A program made the translations under genes and the position numbers. Source: Candidatus Poribacteria bacterium (GTDB lineage Bacteria; Poribacteria; WGA-4E; PCPOR2b). From it: DNA of 64,000 bases. A model generated the notes under the pieces. That model searched no databases. It was given only the letters and a program-made list of their open reading frames with translations, and was not told where the DNA came from. The DNA lies in contig OZ242036.1 of assembly GCA_965205075.1 (NCBI GenBank), positions 3,196,795-3,260,794 of the forward strand. Reading direction: 5' to 3'. Shown one piece after another: positions 9,968 to 64,000 of this stretch. Position 1 is the stretch's first letter; the number at the start of each line of letters is the position of its first letter.

Positions 9968-11032
9968 ATGAAAAAAAATATAATCCTTCTATTGACAACA
10001 GCAGCTTTTATACTGTTCGGCTGTGCCCGAGATTCGGGGGAGGTCAATGCGATTGCATCGACGATAGATTATTCGGACGATCGCATCCTCACAGTTCTAC
10101 CGTATGATGCGATTCCTGCAATCCTAAATCCCGAATTCGTCTCTGCCAATAAAGCGAAACTAGCGGATAACTCGCCGGTGATTGGTGTTAGTTTCAATGG
10201 GGAAAGCCGCGCCTATTCGATCCATCTGCTCAACGGACACGAAATCGTCAACGATGAGGTCGGCGGCGTTAAGATTGCAACGACGTGGTGACCACTTTGC
10301 AAAACGGCTATCGTGTATAGTCGTGAACTTGACGGAAAAACCTACACCTTTGGCGTTTCCGGCAAACTCTTTCGCGATGCGCTGCTTATGTATGACCACC
10401 AAACCCGGACGCTCTGGTCACACATTACCGGCGAAGCCGTGCAAGGCGAGCTCAAGGGTAAACGGTTAAAGATGTTAGCTGGCACACCGCGAATCACATG
10501 GAAGGCCTGGAAACGCAACCAGCCATTGACAAAAGTGCTCTCTGTGGCAAACGATTTTCGTGGTCCGGAGAGACACCTCCAAGATATAAGAACCGATAAC
10601 TACGCTATGTATCATGCTAGTTCCGACGCAGGCATAAGCGGCACACAATATACCGACGACCGCTTGATGAACAAGGAGCTAGTTGTTGGCGTCCGCATCA
10701 ATGAGAGCTATCGCGCTTATCCTTTCACAACTTTCAAGAAGAAGTCAATTATCAATGACGAAGTAGGTGACGTGCCGGTGCTAGCCTTTCACGATTTGGA
10801 CTCGAATGCAACTGCCGTTTTTCTCCGCGTTGTAGATGAACAAACATTGAGGTTTGAGCCGGCGCGAGGTTACTTTGTTAAAGATGTTACAACGAAGACA
10901 ACATGGAATCTTATCACAGGGATGGCAACGAAGGGCAAACTTAAAGGACACACACTAGAGCGATTGCCAGCGATGAATATCTACTGGTTTGCTTGGGCGC
11001 GTTACCATCCTGAAACAACTGTCTACAACTAA
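9968..11032 (+). CDS. DUF3179 family secreted protein with an in-frame TGA (10289-10291) at the Cys of the conserved W-C-P-L-C motif; candidate selenoprotein (UxxC) or pseudogene
   Basis: ORFs 9968-10291 and 10313-11032 are in the same frame. The sequence reads TTW-TGA-PLCKTAIVYSRELDGKTYTFGVSGKLF, matching the DUF3179 CPLC core. Signal peptide with lipobox LFGC. Other genes in the window terminate at TGA, so a global TGA reassignment is unlikely. Confidence 0.5.
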
Positions 11033-12676: not shown

Positions 12677-13774
12677 ATGAAGGATCGATTAAGAGTTGGC
12701 ATTGTTGGCGCGCGTAGAGGAGCCGGGCATATCCGTCCCTTCACAACCATTACAGAAACAGAGGTAACCGCAATCTGCGATCTGAACGAAGAGACTCTTC
12801 ATGAGGTCGGAGATCGATATGGTGTTCCGAAACGGTTCATGGACTATGAACAGATGCTCGCGGATGATATTGATATCGTTGTGCTAGGGACACCCGAAAA
12901 TCTGCATGTGCCGCAGTCTATTTCGGGGCTGGAGGCAGGGAAGCATGTCGTCAGCGAGGTGACGGCGGCAACCTCCATGGATCAGTGCTATGAGTTGGTC
13001 AGGGCAGTAAGAAAGAGCAAAACGAAGTATATGATGGCGGAGAACAAGTGCTATACACGGTCAAGCATGTTAATTGGAAACATGGTGCGTCAAGGCTTGT
13101 TCGGAGACATTTACTTTGGTGAGGGCGAATATCTCCATGACATCAAAGTGCTGCATCACGACAGCAGTGGCAATCCGACTTGGCGATACTATTGGCAGGT
13201 CGGTATAAACCGATGTAACTATGCGACGCATAGCCTTGGTCCGGTGATGGACTGGTTCAACGAACGGGTTGTTTCGGTGTGTTGTCTCGGAACTGGTGTA
13301 CACACCGATCCGGAACATGCCATGGAAGACACAGTAATGATGTTGTGCAAGACCGAGAGTGGGGCTCTGATTAAGATCCGAATTGATATGCTCTCCAATC
13401 GTCCGGCGAACTCATACCTGAGTTTGCAGGGAACAAAGGGCTGTTATGAAGGCACACGAGGAATGAGGGACGTAGAAAAGGTTTGGTTGGCAGATTACCA
13501 CCAACAGGGTGGGTGGCAGCCGTTAGCAGACTTTGAGGATGAGTTTCTGCCAGAAAGTTGGAAAAATCCGCCGGCGGAAGCCGTGAAGGCTGGAGATGTG
13601 ACCGAGGAGTATTTTGAGATGCGCGGTTTTGTCGATAGCATCATTAACGACACCAAGCCGCCAATTGATGTCTATGACGCTATGGATTTGACAGTGCCGG
13701 GGCTGCTCTCTGAGGAATCAATTGCAAATGGTGGAAAGCCCGTTGAGGTGCCTGATTTTCGGGAGATTGACTAG
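12677..13774 (+). CDS. Gfo/Idh/MocA family oxidoreductase
   Basis: N-terminal VGIVGARRGAGH Rossmann region and overall family architecture, 365 aa. Confidence 0.8.
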   Translation: MKDRLRVGIVGARRGAGHIRPFTTITETEVTAICDLNEETLHEVGDRYGVPKRFMDYEQMLADDIDIVVLGTPENLHVPQSISGLEAGKHVVSEVTAATSMDQCYELVRAVRKSKTKYMMAENKCYTRSSMLIGNMVRQGLFGDIYFGEGEYLHDIKVLHHDSSGNPTWRYYWQVGINRCNYATHSLGPVMDWFNERVVSVCCLGTGVHTDPEHAMEDTVMMLCKTESGALIKIRIDMLSNRPANSYLSLQGTKGCYEGTRGMRDVEKVWLADYHQQGGWQPLADFEDEFLPESWKNPPAEAVKAGDVTEEYFEMRGFVDSIINDTKPPIDVYDAMDLTVPGLLSEESIANGGKPVEVPDFREID

Positions 13775-13856
13775 CCTGAGTCGTACGATGAATGAGAGGG
13801 ATTGGGACCTCCCTAATCCCTCAGCGACGTTTGCTGTATTGAAGACATTTCTCACC

Positions 13857-15251
13857 TCAGAAATTGAGCCTGAAACCGGCTTCGACCGAAGTTTTCTGAA
13901 TTGGCTCAAACTGTGTCTCACCCGCCGCATCTTCTACCCGCCGGAAACGGTACTCGCGGAGAACGGCAATCTCAAACCTCGGAAAGATCTCATATCCGAT
14001 TCGCACGATGAACGCAGATTTACTATCGAGACGGAAGAGATCCTCGAAAAAGCCCGGATCTTCCCCCCTCTCAAGATCTGGTTCGCCGATGTTGCGTTTG
14101 AGATAGAATGCCCGGAACGACATCCGTTCAACTACCCCAGATTCCGTGATGCCAAGGTATAACTTTGGCTCCGTGTTGGTATAGTCCTCAAAAGTCGTTA
14201 TGAAATTGATCTGCGGAATCGGTCTAACGGCGATCATAGAAAAATAACCTTGTCGTGCCTGACCTTCACCGCCCTCATTCTCCAACCCCCAAAAGTCAGG
14301 AATATCTTCGGCAGCATCGTAAGCGTAGTCAAAGATAGTTGGATAAAACTGATCGCTAAAAATACGGTATTCAACCTTAAAGAGGGCTTGCGAAAGCGAC
14401 ACACCGATTCCGATAGCATTTCCTATCGCCACATCGGTTATCTCATCAATCTCCTCCGCTTTCGTTTCCGGTTTCGTGTTTAAGACTGCTATATCATCGT
14501 ATATATCCAAACGCATTGACTTGTTGTGAATAAGCGGGAAACCAATATCAACCCCCAATGCGATAAGCGGATCTCCGCCTGGAATCAAAGTTAGATCGGG
14601 TTCGATGTCTGTTAGATAGGTTGCGCCAAATTCAAGACTATTAAGAAGTGGTATGCCGCCCTCCTCCTGTTGCAAAGGACGTACAAACAACCGTCCGCCG
14701 AAAACAGTTGGATCACCGACGTTGTTGAGGATTGTCTCAATCCCAATCTTTTTTGTCTCTGAACTAAGGTTGAGACGCAAGCCCCGGCGGTCATAGTTTG
14801 AATAACCTGACATAATGAACCCGTGCCCAATAGTGGCGTAGTCCAACGCGCCGAAACGGGTGTAAAACGATTCACTAAGATGACCGTAACGCACATAGCG
14901 CACAACCCGCAAGACGGTACTTATGTCGTCCCACGTCTCGCCGTCCTCAGCGAGAATTGTGTGTTCGTCATCCTCAGAGGAACTATAAAGTAGTACAAGA
15001 CCGAGTCCAAAGCCGACTTTGCCGAGATCTATCTCCGGCTGCAACTGAAATCGCAAGAACGGTTCGCCATCAATGAAGGTGAACCCAAGTCCCGAAAGTT
15101 CTCCCCTACTCAAAGCCATTTCTTCTGGATTCGGTGGTCCCCCATATGACAGCGCTGTTTCGCCTGCAATCTCATTTTGGCCATAGGTTGTCAAGCCAAA
15201 GCCCAATAATAAAATTCCTATCCAAATGGCAACGCACTTGCTCCTGTTCAT
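13857..15251 (-). CDS. Outer-membrane beta-barrel protein (hypothetical)
   Basis: Signal peptide MNRSKCVAIWIGILLLGFGLTTYGQ. Alternating amphipathic beta-strand pattern. C-terminal ...AGFRLNF ends in Phe, as in the OMP targeting signature. Start re-placed to ATG 15251. Confidence 0.55.
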   Translation of the reverse strand: MNRSKCVAIWIGILLLGFGLTTYGQNEIAGETALSYGGPPNPEEMALSRGELSGLGFTFIDGEPFLRFQLQPEIDLGKVGFGLGLVLLYSSSEDDEHTILAEDGETWDDISTVLRVVRYVRYGHLSESFYTRFGALDYATIGHGFIMSGYSNYDRRGLRLNLSSETKKIGIETILNNVGDPTVFGGRLFVRPLQQEEGGIPLLNSLEFGATYLTDIEPDLTLIPGGDPLIALGVDIGFPLIHNKSMRLDIYDDIAVLNTKPETKAEEIDEITDVAIGNAIGIGVSLSQALFKVEYRIFSDQFYPTIFDYAYDAAEDIPDFWGLENEGGEGQARQGYFSMIAVRPIPQINFITTFEDYTNTEPKLYLGITESGVVERMSFRAFYLKRNIGEPDLERGEDPGFFEDLFRLDSKSAFIVRIGYEIFPRFEIAVLREYRFRRVEDAAGETQFEPIQKTSVEAGFRLNF

Positions 15252-15517
15252 AAAATTCCTTAAAAAAAATAAGTTGGGACTTACGCAGCTGAACGATGAG
15301 ATGTTGTAATTCAATGTTTCAGCGCCAATGCGGGGCAAGATGCCCCGCCTACGATGGGGGTGGAGTCTGAAAATGCCCCCCGATAGGATCGGGATGCAAG
15401 CACTTGACGCACAATGAATTGCGCTACTACAAACTCAAGTGGGTAAGTCCTATAAGTATTGTATAAGTTCTTGTCCAAGTAGACGCTTCTCTCCACCGAT
15501 TTGTAGTGAGATTCCTC

Positions 15518-16111
15518 TTATTCAAAGACGCGGAACAGAATATCAAAAACCGGATGATCATCAACGCGATGGCTAAATTGATCCCGACACAGCGTTATCT
15601 TTCCGCGCCCGCTTTGGAACTTGAGTCGTATTTTAATTGTAGTACTCGGAATCAACGCATCAAGTGCAAAAACTTCATAAAAGTCTTGTCGTTCTTCCGG
15701 TTTGAGACTGATGGGGAGGCTGTTGCGAAGTAAACTTGGAAAGAGCACCGCGTGCGGTACTTGGTATAACTCCGTATCTTGCCACCTGTGTCCAATTTTC
15801 GCTTGGAACTGGCAGGCTTGAATTGTAATAGGAACCTGATCGCCCTCGTTATAGATCCGACACGAAACGAGAAACAGTAGATGTCCACCGCGTGTGATAA
15901 AGCAGTTTGCCTGTTTTGTTAGTAGCTCGACCCTGAGATGGTTTCCGCGTCGTCTTCGACTGTGGGTTCGCCTGCCAGCGCGGTCTGCATGGAGGTCATA
16001 GACCCATTTAGAGGCAGCAAGTATAACGGCGATGATACTGAGGATGAGGGCAATTGTCGCATGGTCCATTGGCGATTCAAAGTTATCCTTACTTGATGAA
16101 ACGTAAGCCAC
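15518..16111 (-). CDS. Hypothetical membrane-anchored protein (single N-terminal TM helix)
   Basis: A TM segment IALILSIIAVILAA is followed by a soluble domain of about 150 aa. Co-oriented with the ABC exporter cluster. Confidence 0.4.
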   Translation of the reverse strand: MAYVSSSKDNFESPMDHATIALILSIIAVILAASKWVYDLHADRAGRRTHSRRRRGNHLRVELLTKQANCFITRGGHLLFLVSCRIYNEGDQVPITIQACQFQAKIGHRWQDTELYQVPHAVLFPSLLRNSLPISLKPEERQDFYEVFALDALIPSTTIKIRLKFQSGRGKITLCRDQFSHRVDDHPVFDILFRVFE

Positions 16112-16134
16112 TTTTCCATTTCACGTTTTACCCG

Positions 16135-16644
16135 TTAAATCTGTGTTTCAAGGAGGGCTATGCTCTTCGGATCTAGCCGATGGTAGTTGACAATTTCGTA
16201 TCGATTCCCATCAATATCTTTAATCAGCACCCGTCCGCTATCAAGTGAGGTGATGTCATTCCGAGAACGGAGATCGAAAGAAACGAGTCCTGCTTCAGTT
16301 TCAGCGGCCCACTCAGTGACGCCGAACCGTCCCGCAAGGTCATGAATCTTTGTAATTTTTGGCATAAAATAGCATTTTTCCAATTCTTCCGCTAGGACTG
16401 TCTGATCTGTTTTGTTTAACTGCTTTATGTCCTCAATTAGGCCCAACTCGTTTTTGTCGGCGTCAAGGAGACTGATATACTGATCCGGTTGGGTCAATGG
16501 AAACGTGCGCACCGGCTCAACCGGTGTGTGAACTGAGCCGTCCGGCAGTTCCGCTTCCAATTCTGCAAATTGGTTCCGGCTAATTTTCACCAGCTTAGGA
16601 TCAAGAAATTGGACTTCATCTTCGATCCGAATGGGTTGTTCCAC
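16135..16644 (-). CDS. Small cytoplasmic accessory protein, DUF1854-like (this family is found next to ABC exporters)
   Basis: 169 aa. RBS AAAGGAG precedes an internal GTG. Positioned immediately downstream of the ABC ATPase/permease. Family assignment is from memory and is low-confidence. Confidence 0.4.
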   Translation of the reverse strand: MEQPIRIEDEVQFLDPKLVKISRNQFAELEAELPDGSVHTPVEPVRTFPLTQPDQYISLLDADKNELGLIEDIKQLNKTDQTVLAEELEKCYFMPKITKIHDLAGRFGVTEWAAETEAGLVSFDLRSRNDITSLDSGRVLIKDIDGNRYEIVNYHRLDPKSIALLETQI

Positions 16645-16671
16645 TGTATCTACTCCTTTCACATCTCATTT

Positions 16672-19038
16672 TTACCACGCCCGAATCTTTGAGAGTTCTG
16701 TCTGCTTTTCGCATAGGTTGGCATACGTTCCACCTTCGGCGATCAACTCTTCGTGTGTACCAATCTCATCAATTTGCCCTTCTTTGAGGACAACCAGACG
16801 ATTAGAATGTTTGAGTGTCGAAAGGCGGTGGGCGATTGCGAAGACTGTCCGCCCCTGAATCAGCCGTCCCAACGCCTCTTGGATTCTTGATTCGGTCTCC
16901 GTATCAACAGACGAAGTAGCTTCATCGAGGATGAGAATGCGCGGATTTTTGAGGATCGCGCGAGCGATGGAGATCCGTTGACGTTCTCCACCAGAGACGC
17001 GTGCCCCCCTTTCACCAACCGTCGTATCGTAACCATCAGGGAATTTAACGATAAAGTCGTGGGCGTTTGCGGCTTTTGCCGCAGCGATAATCTCTTGGCG
17101 AGTTGCATCCGGTTTGCCATAACCGATATTGTCAGCGACGGAGCCTTCAAACAGGAATGGTTCCTGCAGCACCACGCCAATCTGCCCTCGCAGAGACCTG
17201 AGTTCAATATCGCGGCTATCATGCCCGTCAATAAGAATTTCACCCTCGTTGGGATCATAGAATCGGGTCACTAAATTGATGAGGGTACTTTTGCCTGCGC
17301 CGCTATGTCCGACGAGCCCAATCATCTCTCCCGGCTGGGTGGTAAAACTGATGCCATTGATAGCGTTTTTCTCACCATCGTAAGAGAAGAAAACGTCACG
17401 AAATTCGACCTGCCCCCGCATATTCGGAAGGCGAACAGCGTCTTTACGACTCGCAACGCTAGGCGGTGTGTCAAGGACCTCAAAGACCCGCTCAGCAGAC
17501 GTCGCAGCTCTCAGGAATCGACGGTTCATCTGAGCGAGTGTTCGTACGGGTTGTAAAAACCGCGTCATATAAGTCATGAATAGCGTAATTTCACCGAGCG
17601 TTAAGTCTCCATTGAGGATCTGCCGCCCTCCAACCAACCAGATGAGTACAGTCCCCAAATAGGTCATAAAGGTCATGATTGGCTGATAAAGTGTCCACAG
17701 TTTGGCGGCATTCATTTCTCCTTCAAAAACCTGATGGGTCTGCTCTTGAAAGCGATCGACTTCGTATTTCTCACGGGTGAATGCCTTAACAACCCGTATC
17801 CCCGGAATTGTACTTGCCAAAATTGTGCTAATCCCAGCGTAGCGCCTCCACAAGACGTGGAAAACCTTGGACATTTTGTGTCCAAAATAGAATGAGAAAA
17901 GGATAATGAAGGGAATCGGAAGCAACACCCAGAGTGCCAGCTGCCAGTTCACGGTAAACATGATAATGCACATAAAAATCAGCGTCATTGAATCGCCGAT
18001 AATATCCTGCAGCCCTTCAGCGATGAAGTCACGCAGCCGTCCGACATCCTGAGTGATGCGTGACATAAGATTCCCCGTCTCCCGCTGTTGGTAGAAGTCG
18101 AGTGAAAGGATACTCATGTGCTGATAGGCATCATTCCGCAATGTCAAGGTGATACGCTGCCCGACCCACGCCATCATGTACCCCCGAACTGCTGAGAAAG
18201 CTGCCGTAAAAACGTGTAATCCAACCATCAGAAGCACAATCATTACCACTTGTCCAAACGCGCCCGGCTGGACCGGCTGTCCTCCCGTCATTGCCATTGT
18301 TGCGGGAACGAGGATGTCATCAATCAGTTGCTGAACCAGAATAGGAGGATAAACGTCAACAAACCGGATAACCAGCATAACTAGTAACGCTGGAACAGAA
18401 ACCTTCCAAAATGGGAGGGCGTACTTTAGCAAGCGGACGAGGAGTTTCCCTTTTTCAACGCAGTTCGGGCAAACATCAGACCACCGTGGGATCGGGCGCC
18501 CACAGGTTTCACATCGAATTTTCTTTTTTCCGGGATCGACATATTTCCGACGCCGCTTAGATTTGTCCGCTTCTTCCGGCTTAACCTTGTCAATTAAAGA
18601 TTCGATTTCTGGGGTCGCTTCGGCAAATTTGGGAACGAACCGCTTGGAGTAGCGAGCAATTTCAAATGCTCCCTCTGCGGTTCGCACTTTCATGAAATTA
18701 TTGCCGTATAACTCTCGTATTTCGATTCTGTCAATGGTTTCGAGCGCAATATTTTGGATTTCAGGTCCGGGCACACCGTTTTGGTTAAAAGCGAGTAGGC
18801 GTTTCTCCGTCGCTAACACCCAATCTTTCCCGTAAGTGCCATCAAACTGTAAATCTGTAGAAATAGCAATTTTAATCTCTTCTTCTCCATCTAGCAAATC
18901 TTCAAGCTGATCTTGGAGCTCTGCTGGCACTTCCTCTAAAATTGTCATCTCTACATCGGGCCGTCTAACGTTGTTCCTTCTACCGGAAGAACGAGCCATT
19001 CGATGCATGTCTCGTCTAGAAAATCCCCCGCTGTGCAT
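16672..19038 (-). CDS. ABC transporter ATP-binding/permease fusion (type I exporter) with an N-terminal PH-like cytoplasmic domain and a C4 zinc ribbon
   Basis: Walker A GHSGAGKST, signature VSGGERQRISIARA, Walker B ILILDEATSSVD, H-loop AIAHRLST. Six predicted TM helices. N-terminal domain of about 150 aa followed by CETCGRPIPRWSDVCPNC. Start placed at ATG 19038 after RBS GAGGAGG. Confidence 0.85.
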   Translation of the reverse strand: MHSGGFSRRDMHRMARSSGRRNNVRRPDVEMTILEEVPAELQDQLEDLLDGEEEIKIAISTDLQFDGTYGKDWVLATEKRLLAFNQNGVPGPEIQNIALETIDRIEIRELYGNNFMKVRTAEGAFEIARYSKRFVPKFAEATPEIESLIDKVKPEEADKSKRRRKYVDPGKKKIRCETCGRPIPRWSDVCPNCVEKGKLLVRLLKYALPFWKVSVPALLVMLVIRFVDVYPPILVQQLIDDILVPATMAMTGGQPVQPGAFGQVVMIVLLMVGLHVFTAAFSAVRGYMMAWVGQRITLTLRNDAYQHMSILSLDFYQQRETGNLMSRITQDVGRLRDFIAEGLQDIIGDSMTLIFMCIIMFTVNWQLALWVLLPIPFIILFSFYFGHKMSKVFHVLWRRYAGISTILASTIPGIRVVKAFTREKYEVDRFQEQTHQVFEGEMNAAKLWTLYQPIMTFMTYLGTVLIWLVGGRQILNGDLTLGEITLFMTYMTRFLQPVRTLAQMNRRFLRAATSAERVFEVLDTPPSVASRKDAVRLPNMRGQVEFRDVFFSYDGEKNAINGISFTTQPGEMIGLVGHSGAGKSTLINLVTRFYDPNEGEILIDGHDSRDIELRSLRGQIGVVLQEPFLFEGSVADNIGYGKPDATRQEIIAAAKAANAHDFIVKFPDGYDTTVGERGARVSGGERQRISIARAILKNPRILILDEATSSVDTETESRIQEALGRLIQGRTVFAIAHRLSTLKHSNRLVVLKEGQIDEIGTHEELIAEGGTYANLCEKQTELSKIRAW

Positions 19039-19434
19039 AAAAAACCTCCTCACTGAAGCACACAAACGCAAACCGTACCGACAAATTTTGGTGCGGTTCT
19101 TTTTGGACGATGGAACATAGAAAATGTTGAGGAGAAATTGGGGATGAGCGAGACGAAGCAACAGGTAGAATCAGAAACGATTCAGAGAAGGGAAAGAAAC
19201 TGAACTTCTGCGAATAGGGCATACGATTGGGAAGAAAATCTGACCGACGTACCTATGATCTCTGAAAGGGAAGGAAGATTTCAATGACCAATCGTCAACT
19301 CACGGTGCTGTCAGGTTGCAGATTCTTCACCGGTACTCGGACGAGTCGACAGCACCGGAGCTTATGATTGCTCTGAAATAGGGGGAATCGGTGTTTCACA
19401 AAGAATGAGGTGTGTCAGGAGGTGTATAGTTGGA

Positions 19435-20178
19435 TTAGCAGCCGGTGGCGATAAATATCGCAACCTTCTGGATCAAATTGCCGTCCTTCGCCATTGACGA
19501 GAGGAATAGCATCGGCGCAGAAGATACCGCGTAATGTGGGGTCGCATTAAGGACCAAATCCAATTGATCGTCTCCATCCAGATCGCCCGCCCAAAGCAGG
19601 GTAGGTATAGCACCATTCGTAGAACTGTATGCGAGCAGTTCCTGCGATAAGTGCCCCTTGGACAGTTCAAGGCTGTAGTTTTCGAGTGAGGTAAACCCGT
19701 TCGGCCCGATATCCCCTTCGCCATAAACTGTCAACTGACTTTCGTTTTCGTCGTCCAATGTAAGGTTAAGGGATTTACCGGGACTCAAAATTGCCCCTTC
19801 ATCGGATAGTGTCTTGATGGATCCCCTTTCAGGTGCTTCCAAACCTTTTATCAGAAAAAGTGGGCGTGTCTGCCCCTCTGCCGACACCACTTTTCCGGTC
19901 TTCTCCCCGGCATTGTCAACGAATGGGTCATAAACGGTTTCCACCGTAATCCTCGAAGAGATGAGCGCGTACCCATCGGACGTCGAATACAATCCCAGCC
20001 AGACTTCACCAGATTCTGCTGAAACCTCGTCGCCGTGAAACGCACCCACCTGCAAGAGTTGAATTTCAGTTTCTACCGGTGATGCCGCTAATTGATCATT
20101 ACAACCAAACATGATGCAACAGATCAGACCCGCCCAAAAGATCGACATTGTAATTGTGAATGACATACGAAATAACAT
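19435..20178 (-). CDS. Hypothetical lipoprotein
   Basis: Signal with lipobox MFGCN. No recognisable domain. Confidence 0.4.
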   Translation of the reverse strand: MLFRMSFTITMSIFWAGLICCIMFGCNDQLAASPVETEIQLLQVGAFHGDEVSAESGEVWLGLYSTSDGYALISSRITVETVYDPFVDNAGEKTGKVVSAEGQTRPLFLIKGLEAPERGSIKTLSDEGAILSPGKSLNLTLDDENESQLTVYGEGDIGPNGFTSLENYSLELSKGHLSQELLAYSSTNGAIPTLLWAGDLDGDDQLDLVLNATPHYAVSSAPMLFLSSMAKDGNLIQKVAIFIATGC

Positions 20179-20425
20179 GGTCTTATTCCTCCTTACCTCA
20201 GATCGTGTTTCAGCTTACCCATTTTCAAAGGTTTCAAAATTGTGTTATATCTTTTTTGAGCAAGACGCGTGCCAAAACCATCGATCCCTTGGGAACAGTG
20301 GATTTGAGACCAGTTACAGACACAGAAATGGCAAAGTGTCTTAGTTCAGTGACACTTGGAACAAAAGCACATGGAATAGTGTATCTCTAAACACACACAC
20401 CTATTCATCAGTAAATTCTAAGGGC

Positions 20426-20454
20426 TTGAATTTTTGGTAAGTTCGTGCTATACT
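20426..20454 (+). promoter_or_regulatory. Sigma70-type promoter TTGAAT-N17-TATACT
   Basis: ttgaat at 20426-20431, a 17-nt spacer, tatact at 20449-20454, about 100 nt upstream of the ATG at 20554. Confidence 0.5.
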
Positions 20455-20553
20455 GAACACCTACAATTAATGAATTGACCAGAAGATAAACACCAATATA
20501 AGCGATATCAAGTGTAATATATAAAACTAAATCATTTGAAGGGACCTCATTCG

Positions 20554-22584
20554 ATGAAAAAATGGATTGTTTTTTTGCTACTTATCGCTGCGCTGTGTGT
20601 GTGGCAGGCAAGCGAAATATTTGCTGTAGGTTTTTTGAAGTTTGAACGGGAGTTCAGTGGGAAGGGCTCAACGGACGGATTTTTTAGCAAAAATATTCAT
20701 GTTGGATTTGACGACACAGGCAACATTTATGTCAGTGACGCAGATAACCGGCTGGTCCAGAAACTGTCACCAAAAGGCGATTTCATTATGCAAATCCCGA
20801 AAGAGAAAACTGTGGACAACATACTCAGAAAGCCGGGCGATGTTGCTGTTGATGGAGTTGGAAATATCTACGTCGTCGATCAGGCTGTACCTCATCATAT
20901 CCCGGAAACCGCAGATCCGAAACTCTATTGGTTTGGTCCCTGTGTTTACAAGTTCAATCGAGATGGCGAATTAATGCACACCTACGTTGTCGATGCGATC
21001 GACGTGCGTCCCAAAGTAGTCCTGCCCACACGCCTGATGATTGACGAGGAGGGTAAAACGGCATTCGCCTATCAACCGAGGAATTATGATCGGTCAGTTC
21101 GCATTGATGTAAACAGCCAAAATCAACTATATGTGTTGGATGCGAAAAACGCTAAGGTTCACAAATTTGGTGCAGATGGGGAGAAATTAATCGCGTTTGG
21201 AAGATACGGGGCAAGCAATGGTGAGTTTGACACCGATGCCTCGGACATTGAAATTGATGCAGCAGGGAATGTGCTTATTGCGGACACCGGCAATCACCGT
21301 GTGGTCAAGTTTAACGCGGACGGGGAGTTTACATTGAAATTTGGGGTGAGGGGACGTAACGAAGGGGAATTTGTCAAGCCCATTGCTGTTGTCGCTTTGG
21401 CAACAGGTGAGATTCTGGTGAAAGATAAGAGCCAATTCAAACGGTTTTTGGGCAGTCCACTCGCAAATTTCTTGGACGTTGTTTCACCTTCTGGACAGGG
21501 GCTCGCCGATGTGTATTCAACCGGCACAGGACTTGTCAATTCGGTCATCAATACCACTCGACCGCGCTCTGCCTCTCTTAACCCAAATTTGCAGTCGTCA
21601 GATCTGGCTATCCTAAATCAGCGGATTCGTCTGCTTGAGGAAGCGGAATATCGCCGCTACCTCAACGAATACCTCGATGAAGAAGATGAGAAAGACGAAA
21701 ACAGAAGAGAGGAGGCAGAAGATCTGAAGGTTAAAGAGATTCGTGAGACAATCTATCACAACATCATTGCGCGTGTACAGCGATTTGATAGTAACGGCAG
21801 ATATAGAGGACGCGTGGTGTATGAAGTGGATAGACAGAGCGCGGAAGACCACGATCTCGCTTTCCTTGCCTTAGATCCCCTTGGTCACATTTACCTTCGC
21901 GACGGCAGTGATTTAATCATTCGTCAATATTCCATTGCAGGTTTTACGATTAAGCCATCGCACATGAACGTGGTTTATAATACTCGGGCACTCAACCGCG
22001 ATCATGACTTCCTTGAAGATTACGAAGATATCGACGACAAAGCAGACGTTGACGACCAATTGAATCTGTTACAGTTGAATAACTCCTTCTTTTGGACATA
22101 TAACCTCTCGGAAAGCTGGAACCTGACCCTTGCGGATGTTTTCACTTATGGGGAGCAGGATGAGCGCTATATAACGCCGCCAAAAGAGGAAGATAGCTAC
22201 GACTTTGAAACCCAAGCGTTGACGAACACTGTCGTTGCAAATCTTAAATTTATCACAAATCCCAATGCCTACCACTACAAGGAGTTCAATCTTTACGCTG
22301 AACGAATTGACGGCACAACAGACCTCTATCAACAGGCACTCTATCCAAATCTGAACCGTCAAGGTCAGGAGGGAGAGGGTGATGCAAGTTCTACAGCTTT
22401 TGGGGTGAATTGGGATGTATTCACGGATGTCAATCTGTGGTTGGAATACACAGATTTGAATCCGGCGAACACAAGTCGTAATTTTGTGCGTCGTTATTTT
22501 GATGCTTCGGGCGATCTCTATGAAGTTTTTGGTAGCCGCAACCGGGCAAGACAGTTTGTCGGTGAATTAACGGTTAAGTTTTAG
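20554..22584 (+). CDS. NHL-repeat protein with a charged coiled-coil linker and a C-terminal beta-barrel-like domain (autotransporter-like architecture)
   Basis: Signal peptide MKKWIVFLLLIAALCVWQA. NHL repeats (ADTGNHRVVKF, etc.). Linker EEDEKDENRREEAEDLKVKE. C-terminal about 250 aa with alternating hydrophobic residues, ending in TVKF. Confidence 0.55.
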   Translation: MKKWIVFLLLIAALCVWQASEIFAVGFLKFEREFSGKGSTDGFFSKNIHVGFDDTGNIYVSDADNRLVQKLSPKGDFIMQIPKEKTVDNILRKPGDVAVDGVGNIYVVDQAVPHHIPETADPKLYWFGPCVYKFNRDGELMHTYVVDAIDVRPKVVLPTRLMIDEEGKTAFAYQPRNYDRSVRIDVNSQNQLYVLDAKNAKVHKFGADGEKLIAFGRYGASNGEFDTDASDIEIDAAGNVLIADTGNHRVVKFNADGEFTLKFGVRGRNEGEFVKPIAVVALATGEILVKDKSQFKRFLGSPLANFLDVVSPSGQGLADVYSTGTGLVNSVINTTRPRSASLNPNLQSSDLAILNQRIRLLEEAEYRRYLNEYLDEEDEKDENRREEAEDLKVKEIRETIYHNIIARVQRFDSNGRYRGRVVYEVDRQSAEDHDLAFLALDPLGHIYLRDGSDLIIRQYSIAGFTIKPSHMNVVYNTRALNRDHDFLEDYEDIDDKADVDDQLNLLQLNNSFFWTYNLSESWNLTLADVFTYGEQDERYITPPKEEDSYDFETQALTNTVVANLKFITNPNAYHYKEFNLYAERIDGTTDLYQQALYPNLNRQGQEGEGDASSTAFGVNWDVFTDVNLWLEYTDLNPANTSRNFVRRYFDASGDLYEVFGSRNRARQFVGELTVKF

Positions 22585-45608: not shown

Positions 45609-45689
45609 TTTCCCATCACCCTTTCATTAAGATAAACCTTTGAGTTTTAGCACTAAAGCAATTTTGCCACAGAAAAGCCAAAGGAACGC

Positions 45690-45894
45690 TAAAATTTTGT
45701 AACATTTCGAGACTATACTTAGGGCGTTGGTTGGGGAAATCAAGAAATTTGGGATGGAAGGCTTTTGCTGTCCATCCCAAATTTCGTTTTACCACCAAGT
45801 GAAAATGTCCCAAGTCAGACAACCCCTACGTAAGTTAATTGCCACAAAAAGTCGAAAGAAATGTCAAAATTTTGTAACATTCATAACCTATACT
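45690..45894 (+). promoter_or_regulatory. Duplicated promoter-like module (AAAATTTTGTAACATT-N7-CTATACT) at 45690-45719 and 45865-45894, flanking a 13-bp-stem hairpin plus T-run (45745-45792)
   Basis: Two about 30-nt copies with identical core, 175 bp apart. A hairpin aaatttgggatgg/ccatcccaaattt is followed by tcgtttta. Upstream of the TonB-dependent receptor gene. Confidence 0.4.
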
Positions 45895-45938
45895 GTAAGT
45901 GCACTAAAACAAACAGACGTAATCAGAACGGGAGAACG

Positions 45939-48779
45939 ATGAAACAATCACTTTTGTGGGTGTTGGTAGTATGGATTTGTTGGGTTCCATCAACACTCAT
46001 CGCGCAACAAACTGGACGTATTGAAGGGATCGTCCTTGATGAAGCGACAGAAACACCGATAGAAGATGTCAGCATCGTATTGAGCGCGACCCAACAGCGC
46101 GTGTCAACGGATCAGGACGGGGCATTCACTCTCGAAGTTCCCTTGGGGACTTACAACATCAGCGTCCGATTTCCTTTCTATCTCACACAGACCGTATCCG
46201 GAATTGAAGTCAACAAATCACAGCCGAAGCAATCCCTCCGTATTACTCTCACCCCTCAAGTCATTAAATTGGGACCTATACATTTACCTGTCCGCCTGAG
46301 CGAATCCAGTGAAACAGGTCTCTTGGAGAAGCGGCGACTAAGTTTTGCTGTCGAAGATAGCATCAGTACCGAGTTGATGGCTAAGCTCCCCGTCTCAGAC
46401 GCTGGGGAAGCACTAAAACGGGTCACCGGCATCAGTATTGTTGGTGGGCGATACGTTTTCGTGCGTGGGCTAGGGGAACGCTATAGTAACACCTTGCTGA
46501 ACAGCGTCCAGATCCCAAGTCCTGAACCCAACCGCCGCGTTGTTCCGATGGATATTTTTCCTGCCAATCTTCTGGAGAGCCTTCAAACCGTTAAAACTTT
46601 CTCTCCCGATCAGCCGGGTAATTTCGCCGGCGGATCCGTGCAGGTTTTCACGAAAGACTTCCCAGATGCGTTCACTATGTCGCTATCAATGTCCAGTAGT
46701 TTTAATACGGAAACAACGGGCAAGGAACTCCTTGAGTATCCGGGCGGAGATTTAGACAGGTTTGGGTTTGACGACGGCACACGCGCACTCCCCGGTATCA
46801 TTGCAGATCAACCACCGGACGCTCCAATTCGCGAACGTGGGCGTTTTACCAGAGGTGGATTCACACCAGAGGAAATTCAACAGTTTGGCAGAGCCTTTGA
46901 TAATGTTTGGTCACCAGAAAGATATACCGCCCCAGCGAACCAAAGCTATAAGTTTAGCATCGGAAATTCCACTCAACTCGTTGGAAAGGATTTCGGGTAT
47001 TTAGGCATTATTTCATATGGTAATGGACACAGTCATCGCCCAGCAGAAGAACAGAATGCGTTTCGGCTAGGCTTGAATGATCTCACCCCCGTGACGGCAT
47101 ATCTGGTGGAGCGCAGCGCAAATGATGTTAGTTGGGGCGGGGTGCTGAACACAAGTATGCGTTTTTCGCCCGGACAGAAGGTGAGTTTGAGAACACTATA
47201 TAGCCATACCGCCGAAGATGAAACGCGGACTTGGGAGGGTTTCAACGCCGACCGCGGCACAGATATGCGAAGTTCTCGCTTGCTCTATGTTGAACGCGGT
47301 CTCTTTTCCAGCCAGCTTGCCGGCGACCATGAATTTGACTTTGCCTCCGAAAACTTCAATGGTGACTCGGAATCTAAAGCAGGGGAAGAAAGCGATACCA
47401 GTGAACCAGAGTTTACGCCTGTACCGACGCTCTCGTGGCGCTTGACCTTCTCTCGTGCGGTGCGAAACGAACCGGATACCCGCGAAGTCATCTATGAAAA
47501 ACGCCGGGATGAATGGCTTTTCCGTGACATCACTCAGAGCGGTAGTCGGTTCTTCTTTGATTTGGCAGATGATGAAATCAGCGGTAGGCTTGATTGGTCA
47601 ATGCCTATTGTAAGAACAGGCTTGTTCAAAGTCGGCGGGATGTGGAGAGATCGCGATAGAACATTTGATGCCCGTCGTTTTCGGTTTCTGCCCTCCGACA
47701 ATATCGAATTATTCTTAGATCGGACTGCTCATCCGGAGGAACTGTTTACCGCAGAACATATTGCTCCTAACCTCTTTGAACTGCGGGAATCAACGCGAGC
47801 AACAGATAACTACCTCGCCGCACATAGCGTGTGGGCTGGCTATGGTATGATCGATCTGCCGTTGTCGAAGAAGTTTCGGGTGACAACCGGCGCTCGGTTG
47901 GAGGTTTCCGATCAGAACGTCACAACATTTGATCCCTTCACCGCAGAACAGCAAGCGATAGAGGCGAACCTAGATACTACAGATATCCTGCCCAGTCTGA
48001 ACCTGACATACCGGCTGACGGAGCGGATGAACTTGCGCTTGGCTGCCTCCCGCACAGTGACGAGACCAGACCTTCGGGAGTTAGCACCTTTCGAGTTTAC
48101 GGATTTCGTTGGTGGCAGAACAATTTTCGGCAATCCAGAACTTGAACGCACACAAATTGACAATTACGATATCCGTTGGGAGGTTTTCCCAGAATTAGGA
48201 GGCGTGGTAGCAATCAGCGGTTTCTACAAGAAATTCCACAAACCCATTGAGCAGATAATCCAACCAGCGGCTGAAGTGCGAATCACCTACGAAAACGCAG
48301 CAGCAGCGAATAACTATGGGCTTGAACTGGAAGTACGCCAAAACCTCAGCATTCTCGCTTCAAGGTTAAGATATTTGTCGGTCAACACCAACGTAGCGTT
48401 CATCTCGTCTAAAGTTGAGTTGCCCGACGTGGGAATTCAGACCTCTTCTGAGCGTGCGCTGCAGGGACAGTCACCGTATGTTGTGAACGCCAGTCTCGGA
48501 TATGACAATCCCGATTTGGAAATCACCGCCGCGGTTGCGTATCATGTCTTTGGAAAACGAATTGCGGAGGTGGGTAATCACGGCAGTCCGGATGTGTTTG
48601 AACTGCCGCGTTCCCAACTGGATGTGACTTTTGGGAGGCAATTACTCCCATTTCTCCGTTTGAGCCTTTCAGCAAAGAATTTGCTGAATCCTGACGTTAC
48701 CTTAGAACAAGGTAGCGAAACCTACGTGCGGTATCGCACGGGTCGGACATTTTCGTTCGGCTTGAGTTACAACTTGTAA
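45939..48779 (+). CDS. TonB-dependent outer-membrane receptor (with an N-terminal carboxypeptidase-regulatory-like domain)
   Basis: Signal peptide. A CarbopepD_reg-like region, plug-domain motifs and a long beta-barrel (947 aa) with a C-terminal barrel strand. In the Pho cluster. Confidence 0.8.
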   Translation: MKQSLLWVLVVWICWVPSTLIAQQTGRIEGIVLDEATETPIEDVSIVLSATQQRVSTDQDGAFTLEVPLGTYNISVRFPFYLTQTVSGIEVNKSQPKQSLRITLTPQVIKLGPIHLPVRLSESSETGLLEKRRLSFAVEDSISTELMAKLPVSDAGEALKRVTGISIVGGRYVFVRGLGERYSNTLLNSVQIPSPEPNRRVVPMDIFPANLLESLQTVKTFSPDQPGNFAGGSVQVFTKDFPDAFTMSLSMSSSFNTETTGKELLEYPGGDLDRFGFDDGTRALPGIIADQPPDAPIRERGRFTRGGFTPEEIQQFGRAFDNVWSPERYTAPANQSYKFSIGNSTQLVGKDFGYLGIISYGNGHSHRPAEEQNAFRLGLNDLTPVTAYLVERSANDVSWGGVLNTSMRFSPGQKVSLRTLYSHTAEDETRTWEGFNADRGTDMRSSRLLYVERGLFSSQLAGDHEFDFASENFNGDSESKAGEESDTSEPEFTPVPTLSWRLTFSRAVRNEPDTREVIYEKRRDEWLFRDITQSGSRFFFDLADDEISGRLDWSMPIVRTGLFKVGGMWRDRDRTFDARRFRFLPSDNIELFLDRTAHPEELFTAEHIAPNLFELRESTRATDNYLAAHSVWAGYGMIDLPLSKKFRVTTGARLEVSDQNVTTFDPFTAEQQAIEANLDTTDILPSLNLTYRLTERMNLRLAASRTVTRPDLRELAPFEFTDFVGGRTIFGNPELERTQIDNYDIRWEVFPELGGVVAISGFYKKFHKPIEQIIQPAAEVRITYENAAAANNYGLELEVRQNLSILASRLRYLSVNTNVAFISSKVELPDVGIQTSSERALQGQSPYVVNASLGYDNPDLEITAAVAYHVFGKRIAEVGNHGSPDVFELPRSQLDVTFGRQLLPFLRLSLSAKNLLNPDVTLEQGSETYVRYRTGRTFSFGLSYNL

Positions 48780-62391: not shown

Positions 62392-64000
62392 TTACTTCAA
62401 TATTAACATCCGCCGTGTTGCCGTGAACTCTCCCGCTGCCAGTGTGTAAAAATAGAGACCACTAACGACAAACTCACCCAGCTGGTTCCGTCCGTCCCAA
62501 TAGGCTGCGCGGCTGCGACTCTGATACATCCCCGCCGCTTGATGCCCTACCGGCAATCGTCGAACCATCTCCCCATTTATATCATAAATCGTCAGCGTCA
62601 CCTCTGCTGACTCCGCTAACTGATAGGGCATCCACGTCTCCGGGTTAAACGGATTCGGATAGTTTGCCAACAACGCGGTCTCTTCAGGAATTAATGAGGC
62701 TAGCAGTTTTTGGAGGTTCTTTATTCCCTGTTTGAAGGGGTGCGAACCATCATCTTCCAACCGTGCCTGCGCTATCCACGCTTCTATCATCGCAGCATCT
62801 ATGTTTTCTGCTGCAACCACAGGCGCAGCAGATGATCCGGCAATCCTCTGTGACACGAGGATGAGGTCAAGGATACTGACAACACCGTCGCCGTTGACAT
62901 CCACCGCCGAACCTGCGGACACTCTTTTACCCAACTGTTGCGCAACAAGAACCAGATCCAGAATGCTCACCCGTCCATCCCGATTCACGTCCCCGGTGGT
63001 AAGCTGTCCTTCTATAGTAATGTGAATTTCATGGGGGCCTGCAGGAATACTATCACCGGTGCTAGCAGCAAACTCAAAATCACGCAGTGCCAACTCTGTT
63101 TCACCGATGGCTTTCGCCTTGAACCTTACTTGAAGCAGTGTACCGGTGCCACCCACACCTTGGGAGGACAACCGCGCCGCATTGAGTCCCGTAATTTTAC
63201 CCGCTGCGTTATCAATACTTCCTCCCTGAAAAAAGGTGGTGCCGCCACCGGTCTTCAGGAAATCACCCTCGCTCACGTTGATGACTTCAAGGACAGTAGG
63301 GTCGAAGGCGATATCAAACTGCCACCCTGCTAGGTTAATGACATCTTCTGCACGGATGTCAAGGGTAAAGGTATCACCTATATGAATTGGCGTTTTAGAA
63401 AAAGCGTAATCAAGACTGGGGTTTGTCACTGTATATTCAGTGCCGGGCTCAAATCCAAAAAAAGCGTTACCGTCACTAGGCGTGATATTAACTGCCGCTA
63501 ACAGGATATTTCTCCCCTGCTTCAGCGTAACCGGGGAATAATCACTGTAATCCTCACCCCAAAGCCTATCAAGGCGCTCGTAAACCAAACCCCCGTTGAG
63601 CCAGACCTTTAGCCCGTGCAGGGCACCAACGTACATCGCTGTGTTCTGTTCCTGTGGAGAATAGAGGGACACAGTGCCGTAGACAACTCCACGGAACTCG
63701 CGTTTCAGCATATCTTCAATGTTATCCCAGCCCATAGTTGGGAGTTTATAGAATGTCCACACATCATCGCCGACAGATTGCCCTTCCACTGCCCCGTGGG
63801 TGGAGACCTCCACCTCTGTCACCCTCCCACCACTCACTTCTGATAGTAAATCGGTACTGCTATCCAGCTTAGTATCCGGTAGCACGACCCATAGCCACGG
63901 TCCTTCTATCTTCGGCCCCCCTTGTGGAAATCCCGGATTTGCGTGCCAAATAAGCGTTATATTCTCTCGTAATCCGTCCAAGGGCGAAAAGTCGGAAATT
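62392..64000 (-). CDS. Secreted cohesin-domain plus tandem dockerin-repeat protein with a T9SS-type (Por_Secre_tail/FlgD-Ig-like) C-terminal sorting domain; 5' end lies beyond the window
   Basis: Cohesin-like segment (TLDIRAEDVINLAGWQFDIAFDPTVLEVINVSEGDF...). Dockerin repeats (GDVNRDGRVSILDLVLVAQQL, VDVNGDGVVSILDLILVSQRI). C-terminal NYPNPFNPET...GLYFYTLAAGEFTATRRMLILK. Confidence 0.7.
   Translation of the reverse strand, partial: ISDFSPLDGLRENITLIWHANPGFPQGGPKIEGPWLWVVLPDTKLDSSTDLLSEVSGGRVTEVEVSTHGAVEGQSVGDDVWTFYKLPTMGWDNIEDMLKREFRGVVYGTVSLYSPQEQNTAMYVGALHGLKVWLNGGLVYERLDRLWGEDYSDYSPVTLKQGRNILLAAVNITPSDGNAFFGFEPGTEYTVTNPSLDYAFSKTPIHIGDTFTLDIRAEDVINLAGWQFDIAFDPTVLEVINVSEGDFLKTGGGTTFFQGGSIDNAAGKITGLNAARLSSQGVGGTGTLLQVRFKAKAIGETELALRDFEFAASTGDSIPAGPHEIHITIEGQLTTGDVNRDGRVSILDLVLVAQQLGKRVSAGSAVDVNGDGVVSILDLILVSQRIAGSSAAPVVAAENIDAAMIEAWIAQARLEDDGSHPFKQGIKNLQKLLASLIPEETALLANYPNPFNPETWMPYQLAESAEVTLTIYDINGEMVRRLPVGHQAAGMYQSRSRAAYWDGRNQLGEFVVSGLYFYTLAAGEFTATRRMLILK

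What the first reader, a model, noticed from the sequence alone, without database searches (positions are those of the whole stretch)
13857..19038. Co-oriented cluster: ABC exporter with PH-like and zinc-ribbon N-terminal extension, DUF1854-like protein, membrane-anchored protein, outer-membrane barrel; a possible uncharacterised export module
All four genes are on the minus strand. ABC-DUF1854-like is spaced 7 nt and probably translationally coupled, followed 23 nt later by a single-TM protein, and after a 267-nt gap by a beta-barrel OMP ending in Phe. The ABC protein has a cytoplasmic N-terminal domain of about 150 aa with a PH-like beta-rich pattern, then a C4 zinc ribbon, before a type I exporter core. 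The ABC permease plus small cytoplasmic partner pairing resembles loci of unknown function. The substrate is unknown.
Basis: partly seen in the sequence, partly recalled or inferred. Interest (0 to 1): 0.5.

Follow-up and report, generated by a model that had tools for sequence, protein, structure and literature searches.

The report
ABC exporter with DUF1854 partner
A sponge-symbiont (Poribacteria) genome carries an already catalogued two-gene unit, an ABC exporter with an unusual N-terminal domain plus a small DUF1854 partner. A lineage-specific membrane-anchored protein often travels with the partner, while the neighbouring outer-membrane barrel is only a chance neighbour, so the proposed four-gene export module does not hold.

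Summary
The ABC protein has a bPH-like domain, an invariant C4 zinc ribbon and an ABCB-type exporter core. The next gene is a true DUF1854 protein, followed by an N-terminally anchored membrane protein and a beta-barrel ending in Phe.

The window is from Candidatus Poribacteria. Only the ABC-DUF1854 pair is a conserved unit. The two genes are adjacent in 78 of 78 evaluable Poribacteria genomes and in 30 of 42 evaluable diverse metagenome loci, always with the same N-terminal extension.

This pair is already catalogued. Pfam lists PF08909, and NCBIfam lists 'cyanophycin metabolism-associated ABC transporter' and its DUF1854 partner. Price et al. proposed it exports an amino-acid polymer. The window proteins score below both NCBIfam cut-offs, and no cphA lies in the window or near any Poribacteria locus, so the substrate here is unknown.

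The 183-aa membrane protein belongs to an undescribed, narrow family. It sits next to DUF1854 in 6 of 8 lineages with usable context, in two of them with no ABC gene directly upstream, so it is probably a real accessory partner.

The barrel is not TolC-like. It co-occurs only within genus-level synteny, and elsewhere it follows a LolCD/MacB-like ABC pair.

Verdict: a new member of a known kind, of modest interest.

The parts
16672..19038 (-). ABC exporter half-transporter, 788 aa. Cytoplasmic N-terminal bPH-like domain (~49-140), C4 zinc ribbon (C176/C179/C190/C193), six-helix ABCB-type membrane domain (~199-500), and nucleotide-binding domain with intact Walker A (GHSGAGKST), signature (VSGGERQR), Walker B (ILILDEATS) and H-loop.
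16135..16644 (-). DUF1854 (PF08909) cytoplasmic partner protein, 169 aa. GTG start with an AAGGAG ribosome-binding site; the mechanical ORF starts at 16662.
15518..16069 (-). 183-aa N-terminally anchored membrane protein ('TM183'). Narrow family with no Pfam, NCBIfam or PDB match. C-terminal ~140-aa domain predicted cytoplasmic. Lineage-specific accessory gene linked to DUF1854.
13857..15251 (-). 464-aa outer-membrane beta-barrel protein with a signal peptide, ~20 strands and a C-terminal Phe. A neighbour only; not a conserved member of the unit.
15252..15517 (-). 266-nt spacer between the membrane-protein gene and the OMP gene. It contains a unique perfect 8-bp GC hairpin (15330-15349) without a T-run. 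Spacer length varies among close relatives (65-187 nt, and 1076 nt in one).

Best explanation
The conserved unit is a two-gene system. The first gene encodes an ABCB-type (type IV fold) half-transporter that should work as a homodimer. Each subunit carries a cytoplasmic N-terminal bacterial-PH-like domain and a C4 zinc ribbon ahead of the membrane domain. The second gene encodes a separately made cytoplasmic DUF1854 protein, predicted to consist of two small beta-rich, helix-capped halves with weak PH-like resemblance.

I infer that DUF1854 docks on the cytoplasmic face of the transporter, near the nucleotide-binding domains and the N-terminal module. Together they would select or deliver a substrate made in the cytoplasm, or gate the ATPase, and ATP hydrolysis would drive export across the inner membrane.

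In Betaproteobacteria the homologous pair is linked to, and cofit with, cphA/cphA', so there the cargo is probably a cyanophycin-like amino-acid polymer. In this Poribacteria lineage no cphA is linked and the cargo is unknown.

The 183-aa membrane-anchored protein is a lineage-specific third component. It probably binds or tethers DUF1854 at the membrane. The beta-barrel OMP belongs to a different system.

Shown: gene content, domain architecture, co-conservation, a fusion of the ABC and DUF1854 genes, and absence of cphA nearby. Inferred: physical docking, direction of transport, adaptor or gating role, and the role of the membrane protein.
For: - Domain architecture comes from Pfam and NCBIfam, with a full-length match to NF052233 (profile positions 10-746 of 766) and to NF052234.
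- The ABC gene lies directly upstream of DUF1854 in 78/78 evaluable Poribacteria genomes and 30/42 evaluable diverse metagenome loci, always with the N-domain and CxxC...CxxC.
- A natural fusion, ABC_membrane-ABC_tran-DUF1854, occurs in P0243 (866 aa). It places DUF1854 after the cytoplasmic NBD.
- The zinc-ribbon cysteines are invariant in 83/83 orthologues.
- In the Ralstonia locus, cphA-cphA lies divergent from ABC-DUF1854, and that ABC protein is 39% identical to the window protein over residues 49-779.
- Price et al. report cofitness of DUF1854, the ABC gene and cphA/cphA' in Acidovorax and Cupriavidus, and propose polymer efflux (10.1101/072470).
- An activated-sludge cluster has two cphA genes plus an ABC transporter and no cphB (PMC10687191).
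- The ABC core is closest to the exporters TmrAB, Sav1866, MsbA and ABCB1.
- DUF1854 has no hydrophobic segment. Its model has pLDDT 83, with two beta-rich halves each capped by a helix.
- The membrane protein is adjacent to DUF1854 in 6 of 8 lineages with context.
Against: - No experiment on any member shows transport, a substrate or a complex.
- The window proteins score below the NCBIfam equivalog cut-offs (674 vs 880 bits; 115 vs 150 bits).
- No cphA homologue is present in the 64-kb window, within 10 kb of about 90 Poribacteria loci, or in 80 diverse metagenome loci, so the polymer idea cannot be transferred here.
- 12 of 42 evaluable metagenome loci, plus L001/L002, have DUF1854 without an adjacent ABC gene, so DUF1854 may not be an obligate ABC subunit.
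- hhalign finds no significant similarity between DUF1854 and the ABC N-domain.
- The cytoplasmic orientation of the membrane protein's domain rests only on the positive-inside rule.
Confidence: 0.7

Rival explanations
1. One reading: a four-gene trans-envelope export module. ABC plus DUF1854 would energise export at the inner membrane, the single-TM protein would bridge the periplasm, and the beta-barrel would be the outer-membrane exit.
For: - All four genes are co-oriented.
- In the closest clade the gaps between the membrane-protein gene and the OMP gene are short (65-187 nt in most), so co-transcription there is possible.
- The OMP is a real barrel with a signal peptide and a C-terminal Phe.
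Against: - The OMP is found near the pair only where DUF1854 is at least 82% identical, and there unrelated genes (GFO/IDH/MocA, NHL, HEAT) are also syntenic.
- It is absent from L007 and L020, which keep the membrane protein.
- At 50-58% identity it follows a MacB_PCD/FtsX + ABC ATPase pair, with a 4-nt overlap in L089. A paralogue lies beside an SSF transporter gene.
- No HlyD-type adaptor is present here.
- The membrane protein has only ~2 residues before its helix and an Arg-rich stretch after it, which predicts a cytoplasmic domain.
- A census of 116 flanking ORFs in diverse loci shows no recurrent OMP family.
Confidence: 0.06
2. It is a true orthologue of the cyanophycin-associated transporter and exports cyanophycin or a cyanophycin-like poly-amino acid made by a cphA gene located elsewhere in the Poribacteria genome.
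For: - The best NCBIfam hits for both proteins are the CphA-associated families, with full-length alignments.
- The architecture is shared with the Ralstonia cphA-linked pair.
Against: - Both scores are below the curated equivalog cut-offs.
- tblastn with both Ralstonia CphA proteins finds nothing in the window, the Poribacteria loci or the 80 diverse loci.
- Nearest neighbours are highly variable, which suggests the family as a whole is not tied to cphA.
- Cyanophycin specialists state that no cyanophycin export process is known (PMC9974463).
Confidence: 0.1
3. The transporter is a general lipid or drug flippase of the MsbA/Sav1866 type. DUF1854 and the N-terminal bPH/zinc-ribbon module would be regulators that sense a ligand or membrane state and gate ATPase activity, rather than substrate adaptors.
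For: - The core gives high-scoring but sub-threshold matches to MsbA, MsbA_rel and SmdA models and to MsbA, TmrAB and Sav1866 structures.
- PH-like folds commonly bind ligands or lipids (established knowledge).
- DUF1854 also occurs without an adjacent ABC gene, and in one lineage a response-regulator gene lies between DUF1854 and the membrane-protein gene.
Against: - All named transporter models are below their cut-offs.
- The cofitness with cphA genes in two Betaproteobacteria points to a dedicated cargo.
- No ligand is known for bPH_3 or DUF1854.
Confidence: 0.2

Closest known systems
NCBIfam NF052233 / NF052234, 'cyanophycin metabolism-associated ABC transporter' and 'DUF1854 family protein'. 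Examples: the Ralstonia wenshanensis p56D2 locus and Cupriavidus RR42_RS04420 (Price et al. 2016 preprint, 10.1101/072470).
   Same: Same two-gene layout and the same full-length architecture: N-terminal PH-like region, C4 zinc ribbon, ABCB core, and a ~160-aa DUF1854 partner. The ABC protein is 39% identical and DUF1854 ~35% identical to the Ralstonia pair.
   Different: Scores are below both equivalog cut-offs. No cphA/cphA' is nearby. The phylum is different (Poribacteria). This clade has an extra downstream membrane-anchored gene.
Homodimeric ABCB-type bacterial exporters with solved structures: MsbA, Sav1866, TmrAB, TM287/288.
   Same: The membrane domain and NBD (residues ~199-784) align end to end, and all ATPase motifs are intact.
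   Different: None has the ~198-residue N-terminal bPH plus zinc-ribbon extension or a DUF1854 partner. The MsbA and related models score below their cut-offs.
Type I secretion systems (HlyB-HlyD-TolC).
   Same: An ABC exporter near an outer-membrane protein gene. The HlyB subfamily model matches at 428 bits.
   Different: The score is below the 725-bit cut-off. There is no HlyD adaptor and no C39 or CLD domain. The OMP is an all-beta monomeric barrel, not a TolC alpha/beta trimer, and is not co-conserved.
Bacterial PH (bPH) domain proteins, Pfam PF14470 bPH_3.
   Same: The N-terminal domain of the ABC protein matches bPH_3 at the gathering threshold. Weak hits recur in orthologues.
   Different: Here the domain is fused to a zinc ribbon and an ABC exporter. 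The match is marginal and no function is known for bPH_3.

Membership tests
Pfam PF08909 (DUF1854) | HMM score above the gathering cut-off over the whole domain | tested here: met
   135.7 bits against 26.8; profile positions 1-128 of 130.
NCBIfam NF052234 (cyanophycin metabolism-associated DUF1854 protein, equivalog) | Score at or above the curated cut-off of 150 bits | tested here: not met
   115.1 bits.
NCBIfam NF052233 (cyanophycin metabolism-associated ABC transporter, equivalog) | Score at or above the curated cut-off of 880 bits | tested here: not met
   674.3 bits, although the alignment is full length (protein residues 32-782 to profile positions 10-746 of 766).
Cyanophycin-associated ABC/DUF1854 system | Genomic linkage to cphA/cphA' | tested here: not met
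   No ORF of 400 aa or more in the window has Mur-ligase or ATP-grasp domains. tblastn with Ralstonia CphA and CphA' finds nothing in the window or any Poribacteria locus. The rest of the genome could not be searched.
DUF1854-associated ABC exporter (broad family) | ABC gene directly upstream of DUF1854, with an N-terminal PH-like domain and a CxxC...CxxC zinc ribbon before the membrane domain | tested here: met
   Window; 78/78 Poribacteria genomes and 30/30 adjacent ABC genes in diverse loci; Ralstonia.
ABC exporter, type IV fold (ABCB-like) | ABC_membrane plus ABC_tran domains with Walker A, Walker B, signature motif and H-loop intact | tested here: met
   PF00664 at 173 bits and PF00005 at 128 bits. 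The motifs were read from the translation. The closest solved structures are exporters.
MsbA (TIGR02203) | Score at or above the 602-bit cut-off | tested here: not met
   482.6 bits.
Type I secretion system | HlyB-type ABC above cut-off, HlyD adaptor and TolC-family OMP in the locus | tested here: not met
   TIGR01846 scores 428 bits against a cut-off of 725.55. None of the locus proteins scanned (the four cluster genes and four flanking genes) has a HlyD-family match. The OMP has no OEP/TolC match and an all-beta fold.
Outer-membrane beta-barrel protein (generic) | Signal peptide, all-beta transmembrane barrel and C-terminal aromatic residue | tested here: met
Pfam PF14470 (bPH_3) | Score at or above the gathering cut-off of 23 bits | tested here: inconclusive
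   23.1 bits, E 1e-4, residues 49-140, which is exactly at threshold. L095 scores 21.6 bits. No structure model of this domain was made.

The most novel reading that the evidence does not exclude
The 183-aa membrane-anchored protein defines an undescribed, apparently Poribacteria-restricted family that is a dedicated partner of DUF1854. In some lineages it seems to take the place of the adjacent ABC gene. This would mean DUF1854 is a membrane-recruited adaptor or regulator module that can serve different membrane partners, not just a subunit of one exporter. It would also mean the non-cphA branch of this widespread family (about 1,600 clusters at 50% identity) handles an unknown cargo unrelated to cyanophycin.
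Probability: 0.3. Interest if true: 0.45.

Novelty: new member of a known kind. Interest (0 to 1): 0.3.

Why it matters
DUF1854-associated ABC exporters are widespread: 1,595 representative clusters at 50% identity. They remain biochemically uncharacterised, and the only functional clue is cofitness with cphA genes in two Betaproteobacteria.

This analysis shows that the pair, with its full N-terminal PH-like and zinc-ribbon architecture, is kept in nearly every Poribacteria genome and in many other lineages without any nearby cphA. That cautions against transferring the 'cyanophycin' label.

It also removes a false lead, the outer-membrane barrel, and adds a small real one, a lineage-specific membrane-anchored partner of DUF1854. 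For sponge-symbiont biology the exported substrate could matter, but nothing here identifies it.

Tried and rejected
- Sequence and profile searches of the PDB found nothing meaningful for DUF1854, the membrane protein or the OMP.
- Three hhalign comparisons were not significant: DUF1854 against the ABC N-domain (E 0.053, probability 1%), the membrane protein against DUF1854, and the membrane protein against the N-domain. A common origin of these modules is therefore not supported.
- Pfam at E up to 5 on 43 OMP and 37 membrane-protein homologues found no consistent family.
- Rfam on 13500-20600 at E up to 1 gave no match.
- The sigma-70 promoter and terminator scan found nothing useful. The promoter count (12) was somewhat above shuffles (6.1 ± 2.4), terminators were not above shuffles, and no site stood out upstream of the genes. 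The consensus may also not apply to this phylum.
- PADLOC gave only generic ABC ATPase hits, so there is no defence-system signal.
- The GC hairpin in the spacer is unique in the window and not a repeated element.
- The first search for related loci attempt, with a 48-sequence alignment, failed for lack of a conserved stretch.
- The genome-contig scan returned only Poribacteria, so a metagenome scan seeded with non-Poribacteria members was used for diversity.
- The afdb50 fold library was unavailable.
Full report
**1. What is in the sequence**

Four ORFs lie head to tail on the minus strand between 13857 and 19038.

- **ABC gene.** It starts at the ATG at 19038, 7 nt after GAGGAGG, and ends at 16672, giving 788 aa.
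- **DUF1854 gene.** The mechanical ORF starts at the GTG at 16662 (175 aa). The great majority of homologues are 169 aa, and the GTG at 16644 has AAGGAG 7 nt upstream, so 16135-16644 is the likely gene.
- **Membrane-protein gene.** Its mechanical ORF starts at the GTG at 16111 (197 aa). Homologues begin at the MD... that corresponds to the ATG at 16069, giving 183 aa.
- **OMP gene.** It runs from the ATG at 15251 (AAGGA upstream) to 13857, giving 464 aa.
- **Spacers.** The intergenic distances are 27 nt (or 9), 65 nt (or 23) and 266 nt.

**2. Domain checks**

- **ABC protein.** Pfam finds bPH_3 at residues 49-140, right at the gathering threshold (23.1 bits against 23). It also finds ABC_membrane at 219-498 and ABC_tran at 561-709. 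The motif C176-x2-C179-x10-C190-x2-C193 sits between the PH-like domain and the first transmembrane helix. All four cysteines are invariant in 83 of 83 distinct orthologues. Walker A, the signature motif, Walker B and the H-loop are intact. The core aligns end to end with ABCB-type exporters such as TmrAB, Sav1866, MsbA and ABCB1. No solved structure covers residues 1-198.
- **DUF1854 protein.** It is a clear PF08909 member (135.7 bits).
- **Membrane protein.** It has one hydrophobic helix at the extreme N-terminus, followed by 7 Arg/Lys in 21 residues. By the positive-inside rule this puts its ~140-residue C-terminal domain in the cytoplasm.
- **No family assignment.** Neither the OMP nor the membrane protein matches any Pfam, NCBIfam or PDB sequence family, even at lenient thresholds on 43 and 37 homologues.

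**3. Organism**

The closest homologues of all proteins come from Candidatus Poribacteria MAGs, which are sponge symbionts and marine relatives.

**4. The pair is already catalogued**

NCBIfam's best hits are NF052233, 'cyanophycin metabolism-associated ABC transporter', and NF052234, 'cyanophycin metabolism-associated DUF1854 family protein'.

- NF052233 gives a full-length alignment at 674 bits, below the 880 cut-off.
- NF052234 gives 115 bits, below the 150 cut-off.

Price et al. (bioRxiv 10.1101/072470) found DUF1854 cofit with an ABC transporter and with cphA/cphA' in Acidovorax and Cupriavidus. [quoted passage not shown]

I confirmed the canonical arrangement in Ralstonia wenshanensis. 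There cphA-cphA lies divergent from ABC(768 aa)-DUF1854. The window ABC protein is 39% identical to the Ralstonia one over residues 49-779, and the zinc-ribbon cysteines align. A fusion protein, ABC_membrane-ABC_tran-DUF1854 (P0243, 866 aa), was also confirmed. An activated-sludge study describes a cluster of two cphA genes plus an ABC transporter, without cphB (PMC10687191). Cyanophycin specialists state that no cyanophycin export process is known (PMC9974463).

**5. Neighbourhood test**

I ran tblastn with the window proteins against 80 Poribacteria genome loci with 10-kb flanks, plus further loci.

- **ABC-DUF1854.** The ABC gene is directly upstream of DUF1854 in 78 of 78 evaluable genomes.
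- **Membrane protein.** It is present only where DUF1854 is at least 67% identical.
- **OMP.** It is present only where DUF1854 is at least 82% identical, and in those loci the unrelated flanking genes (GFO/IDH/MocA oxidoreductase, NHL-repeat protein, HEAT protein) are syntenic too. In the 54-62% clade the downstream genes are MR_MLE and PhyH enzymes.
- **OMP elsewhere.** OMP homologues at 50-58% identity lie directly behind a MacB_PCD/FtsX permease and a 224-aa ABC ATPase (LolCD/MacB-like). In L089 the genes overlap by 4 nt, and lpxK is close by in L091/L092. A 65% paralogue lies next to an SSF transporter gene. No FtsX-type gene is in the window. The OMP is therefore a chance neighbour.
- **Diverse loci.** I scanned metagenomes with a non-Poribacteria DUF1854 alignment. 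In 30 of 42 evaluable loci the ABC gene is adjacent, always with the N-domain and CxxC...CxxC.
- **cphA.** None of the 80 diverse loci has a cphA homologue. Neither does any Poribacteria locus or the window.
- **Flanking genes.** A Pfam census of 116 nearest flanking ORFs shows no dominant family: Sulfatase 7, HlyD_3 5, second DUF1854 copies 5.

The conserved unit is the pair alone, and linkage to cphA is a feature of only part of the family.

**6. The membrane protein is a partial surprise**

Its family is narrow: 57 cluster representatives, all at least 43% identical. It is adjacent to DUF1854 in 6 of 8 lineages for which context was available.

Linked:
- the window clade;
- L007/L008 (degraded in L008);
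- L020;
- L095/L096, where a response-regulator gene lies between DUF1854 and the membrane-protein gene;
- L138/L154-158, where no ABC gene occurs within 10 kb;
- L181/L182, where no ABC gene lies directly upstream.

Not linked:
- L093/L094;
- L097/L098.

On a neighbour-joining tree of DUF1854 sequences, the linked members form a grade next to the large unlinked Poribacteria clade, and L095/L096 lies far away. Much of the linkage may therefore be inherited. Even so, it has survived rearrangements that removed the ABC gene from the neighbourhood. I read the membrane protein as a lineage-specific accessory partner of DUF1854.

**7. Structure of DUF1854**

**8. Mechanism**

The best-supported reading is a homodimeric ABCB-type exporter. 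Its cytoplasmic bPH and zinc-ribbon module, together with DUF1854, would form an accessory assembly on the cytoplasmic side that recruits cargo or gates ATP hydrolysis.

- Physical association is supported by the near-universal adjacency, the natural fusion and the published cofitness.
- Direction of transport is inferred from the exporter fold.
- The cargo is probably a CphA/CphA' product in Betaproteobacteria, and it is unknown here.

The rivals are the four-gene trans-envelope module, a true cyanophycin exporter, and a regulated lipid or drug flippase. They are weighed in their own sections of this report.

**9. Verdict**

The interpretation as a four-gene export module is not supported. 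The core is a new member of a known, named but biochemically unstudied family. Interest is modest. The one new lead is the DUF1854-linked membrane-protein family.

Noticed in passing
L089:4966-8398; L091:5011-8416; L092:2088-5493: In more distant Poribacteria, homologues of the window's beta-barrel OMP (50-58% identity) lie directly behind a MacB_PCD/FtsX permease and a 224-aa ABC ATPase (LolCD/MacB-like). The genes overlap by 4 nt in L089, and lpxK is nearby in L091/L092. This may be an undescribed envelope-biogenesis trio.
   Followed up: partly
L109-L112, L116, L121 (e.g. L109:9864-10331 + and ~10375-10884 -): A second, orphan DUF1854 gene lies convergent to a complete ABC-DUF1854 pair in one metagenomic lineage.
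   Followed up: no
L001/L002:8001-8555: A DUF1854 gene 71% identical to the window's lies behind an N6/N4 DNA methyltransferase gene, with no ABC gene within 8 kb.
   Followed up: no
L154:9616-11055 and L138:9611-11055: A DUF6787 (108 aa) - DUF1854 - TM183 homologue trio lies behind a D-serine-dehydratase-like gene, with no ABC exporter within 10 kb. DUF1854 and the TM183 homologue are 17 nt apart.
   Followed up: partly
window 15330-15349: A perfect 8-bp GC hairpin (GCGGGGCA-TCT-TGCCCCGC) without a T-run lies in the 266-nt spacer before the OMP gene. It is unique in the window. The spacer is 65-187 nt in most close relatives and 1076 nt in L011.
   Followed up: partly
window 45664-45719 and 45839-45894: A 56-nt direct repeat (77% identity, 175 nt apart) lies just upstream of, and overlapping, the start of a 972-aa TonB-dependent receptor gene (45861-48779).
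   Followed up: no
window 62392-63981 (-): A 529-aa protein combines cohesin, dockerin and FlgD-Ig domains, an unusual architecture in this phylum.
   Followed up: no
window 19435-20178 (-) and 20536-22584 (+): A secreted 247-aa protein with no family match and a 682-aa NHL-repeat protein (ScyF-like hit) flank the cluster. They are conserved only in the closest clade.
   Followed up: partly
OY282374.1 (L045 and L076); JAJEIP01 (L028 and L082): Some Poribacteria genomes carry two ABC-DUF1854 loci, so the family has paralogues within the phylum.
   Followed up: no
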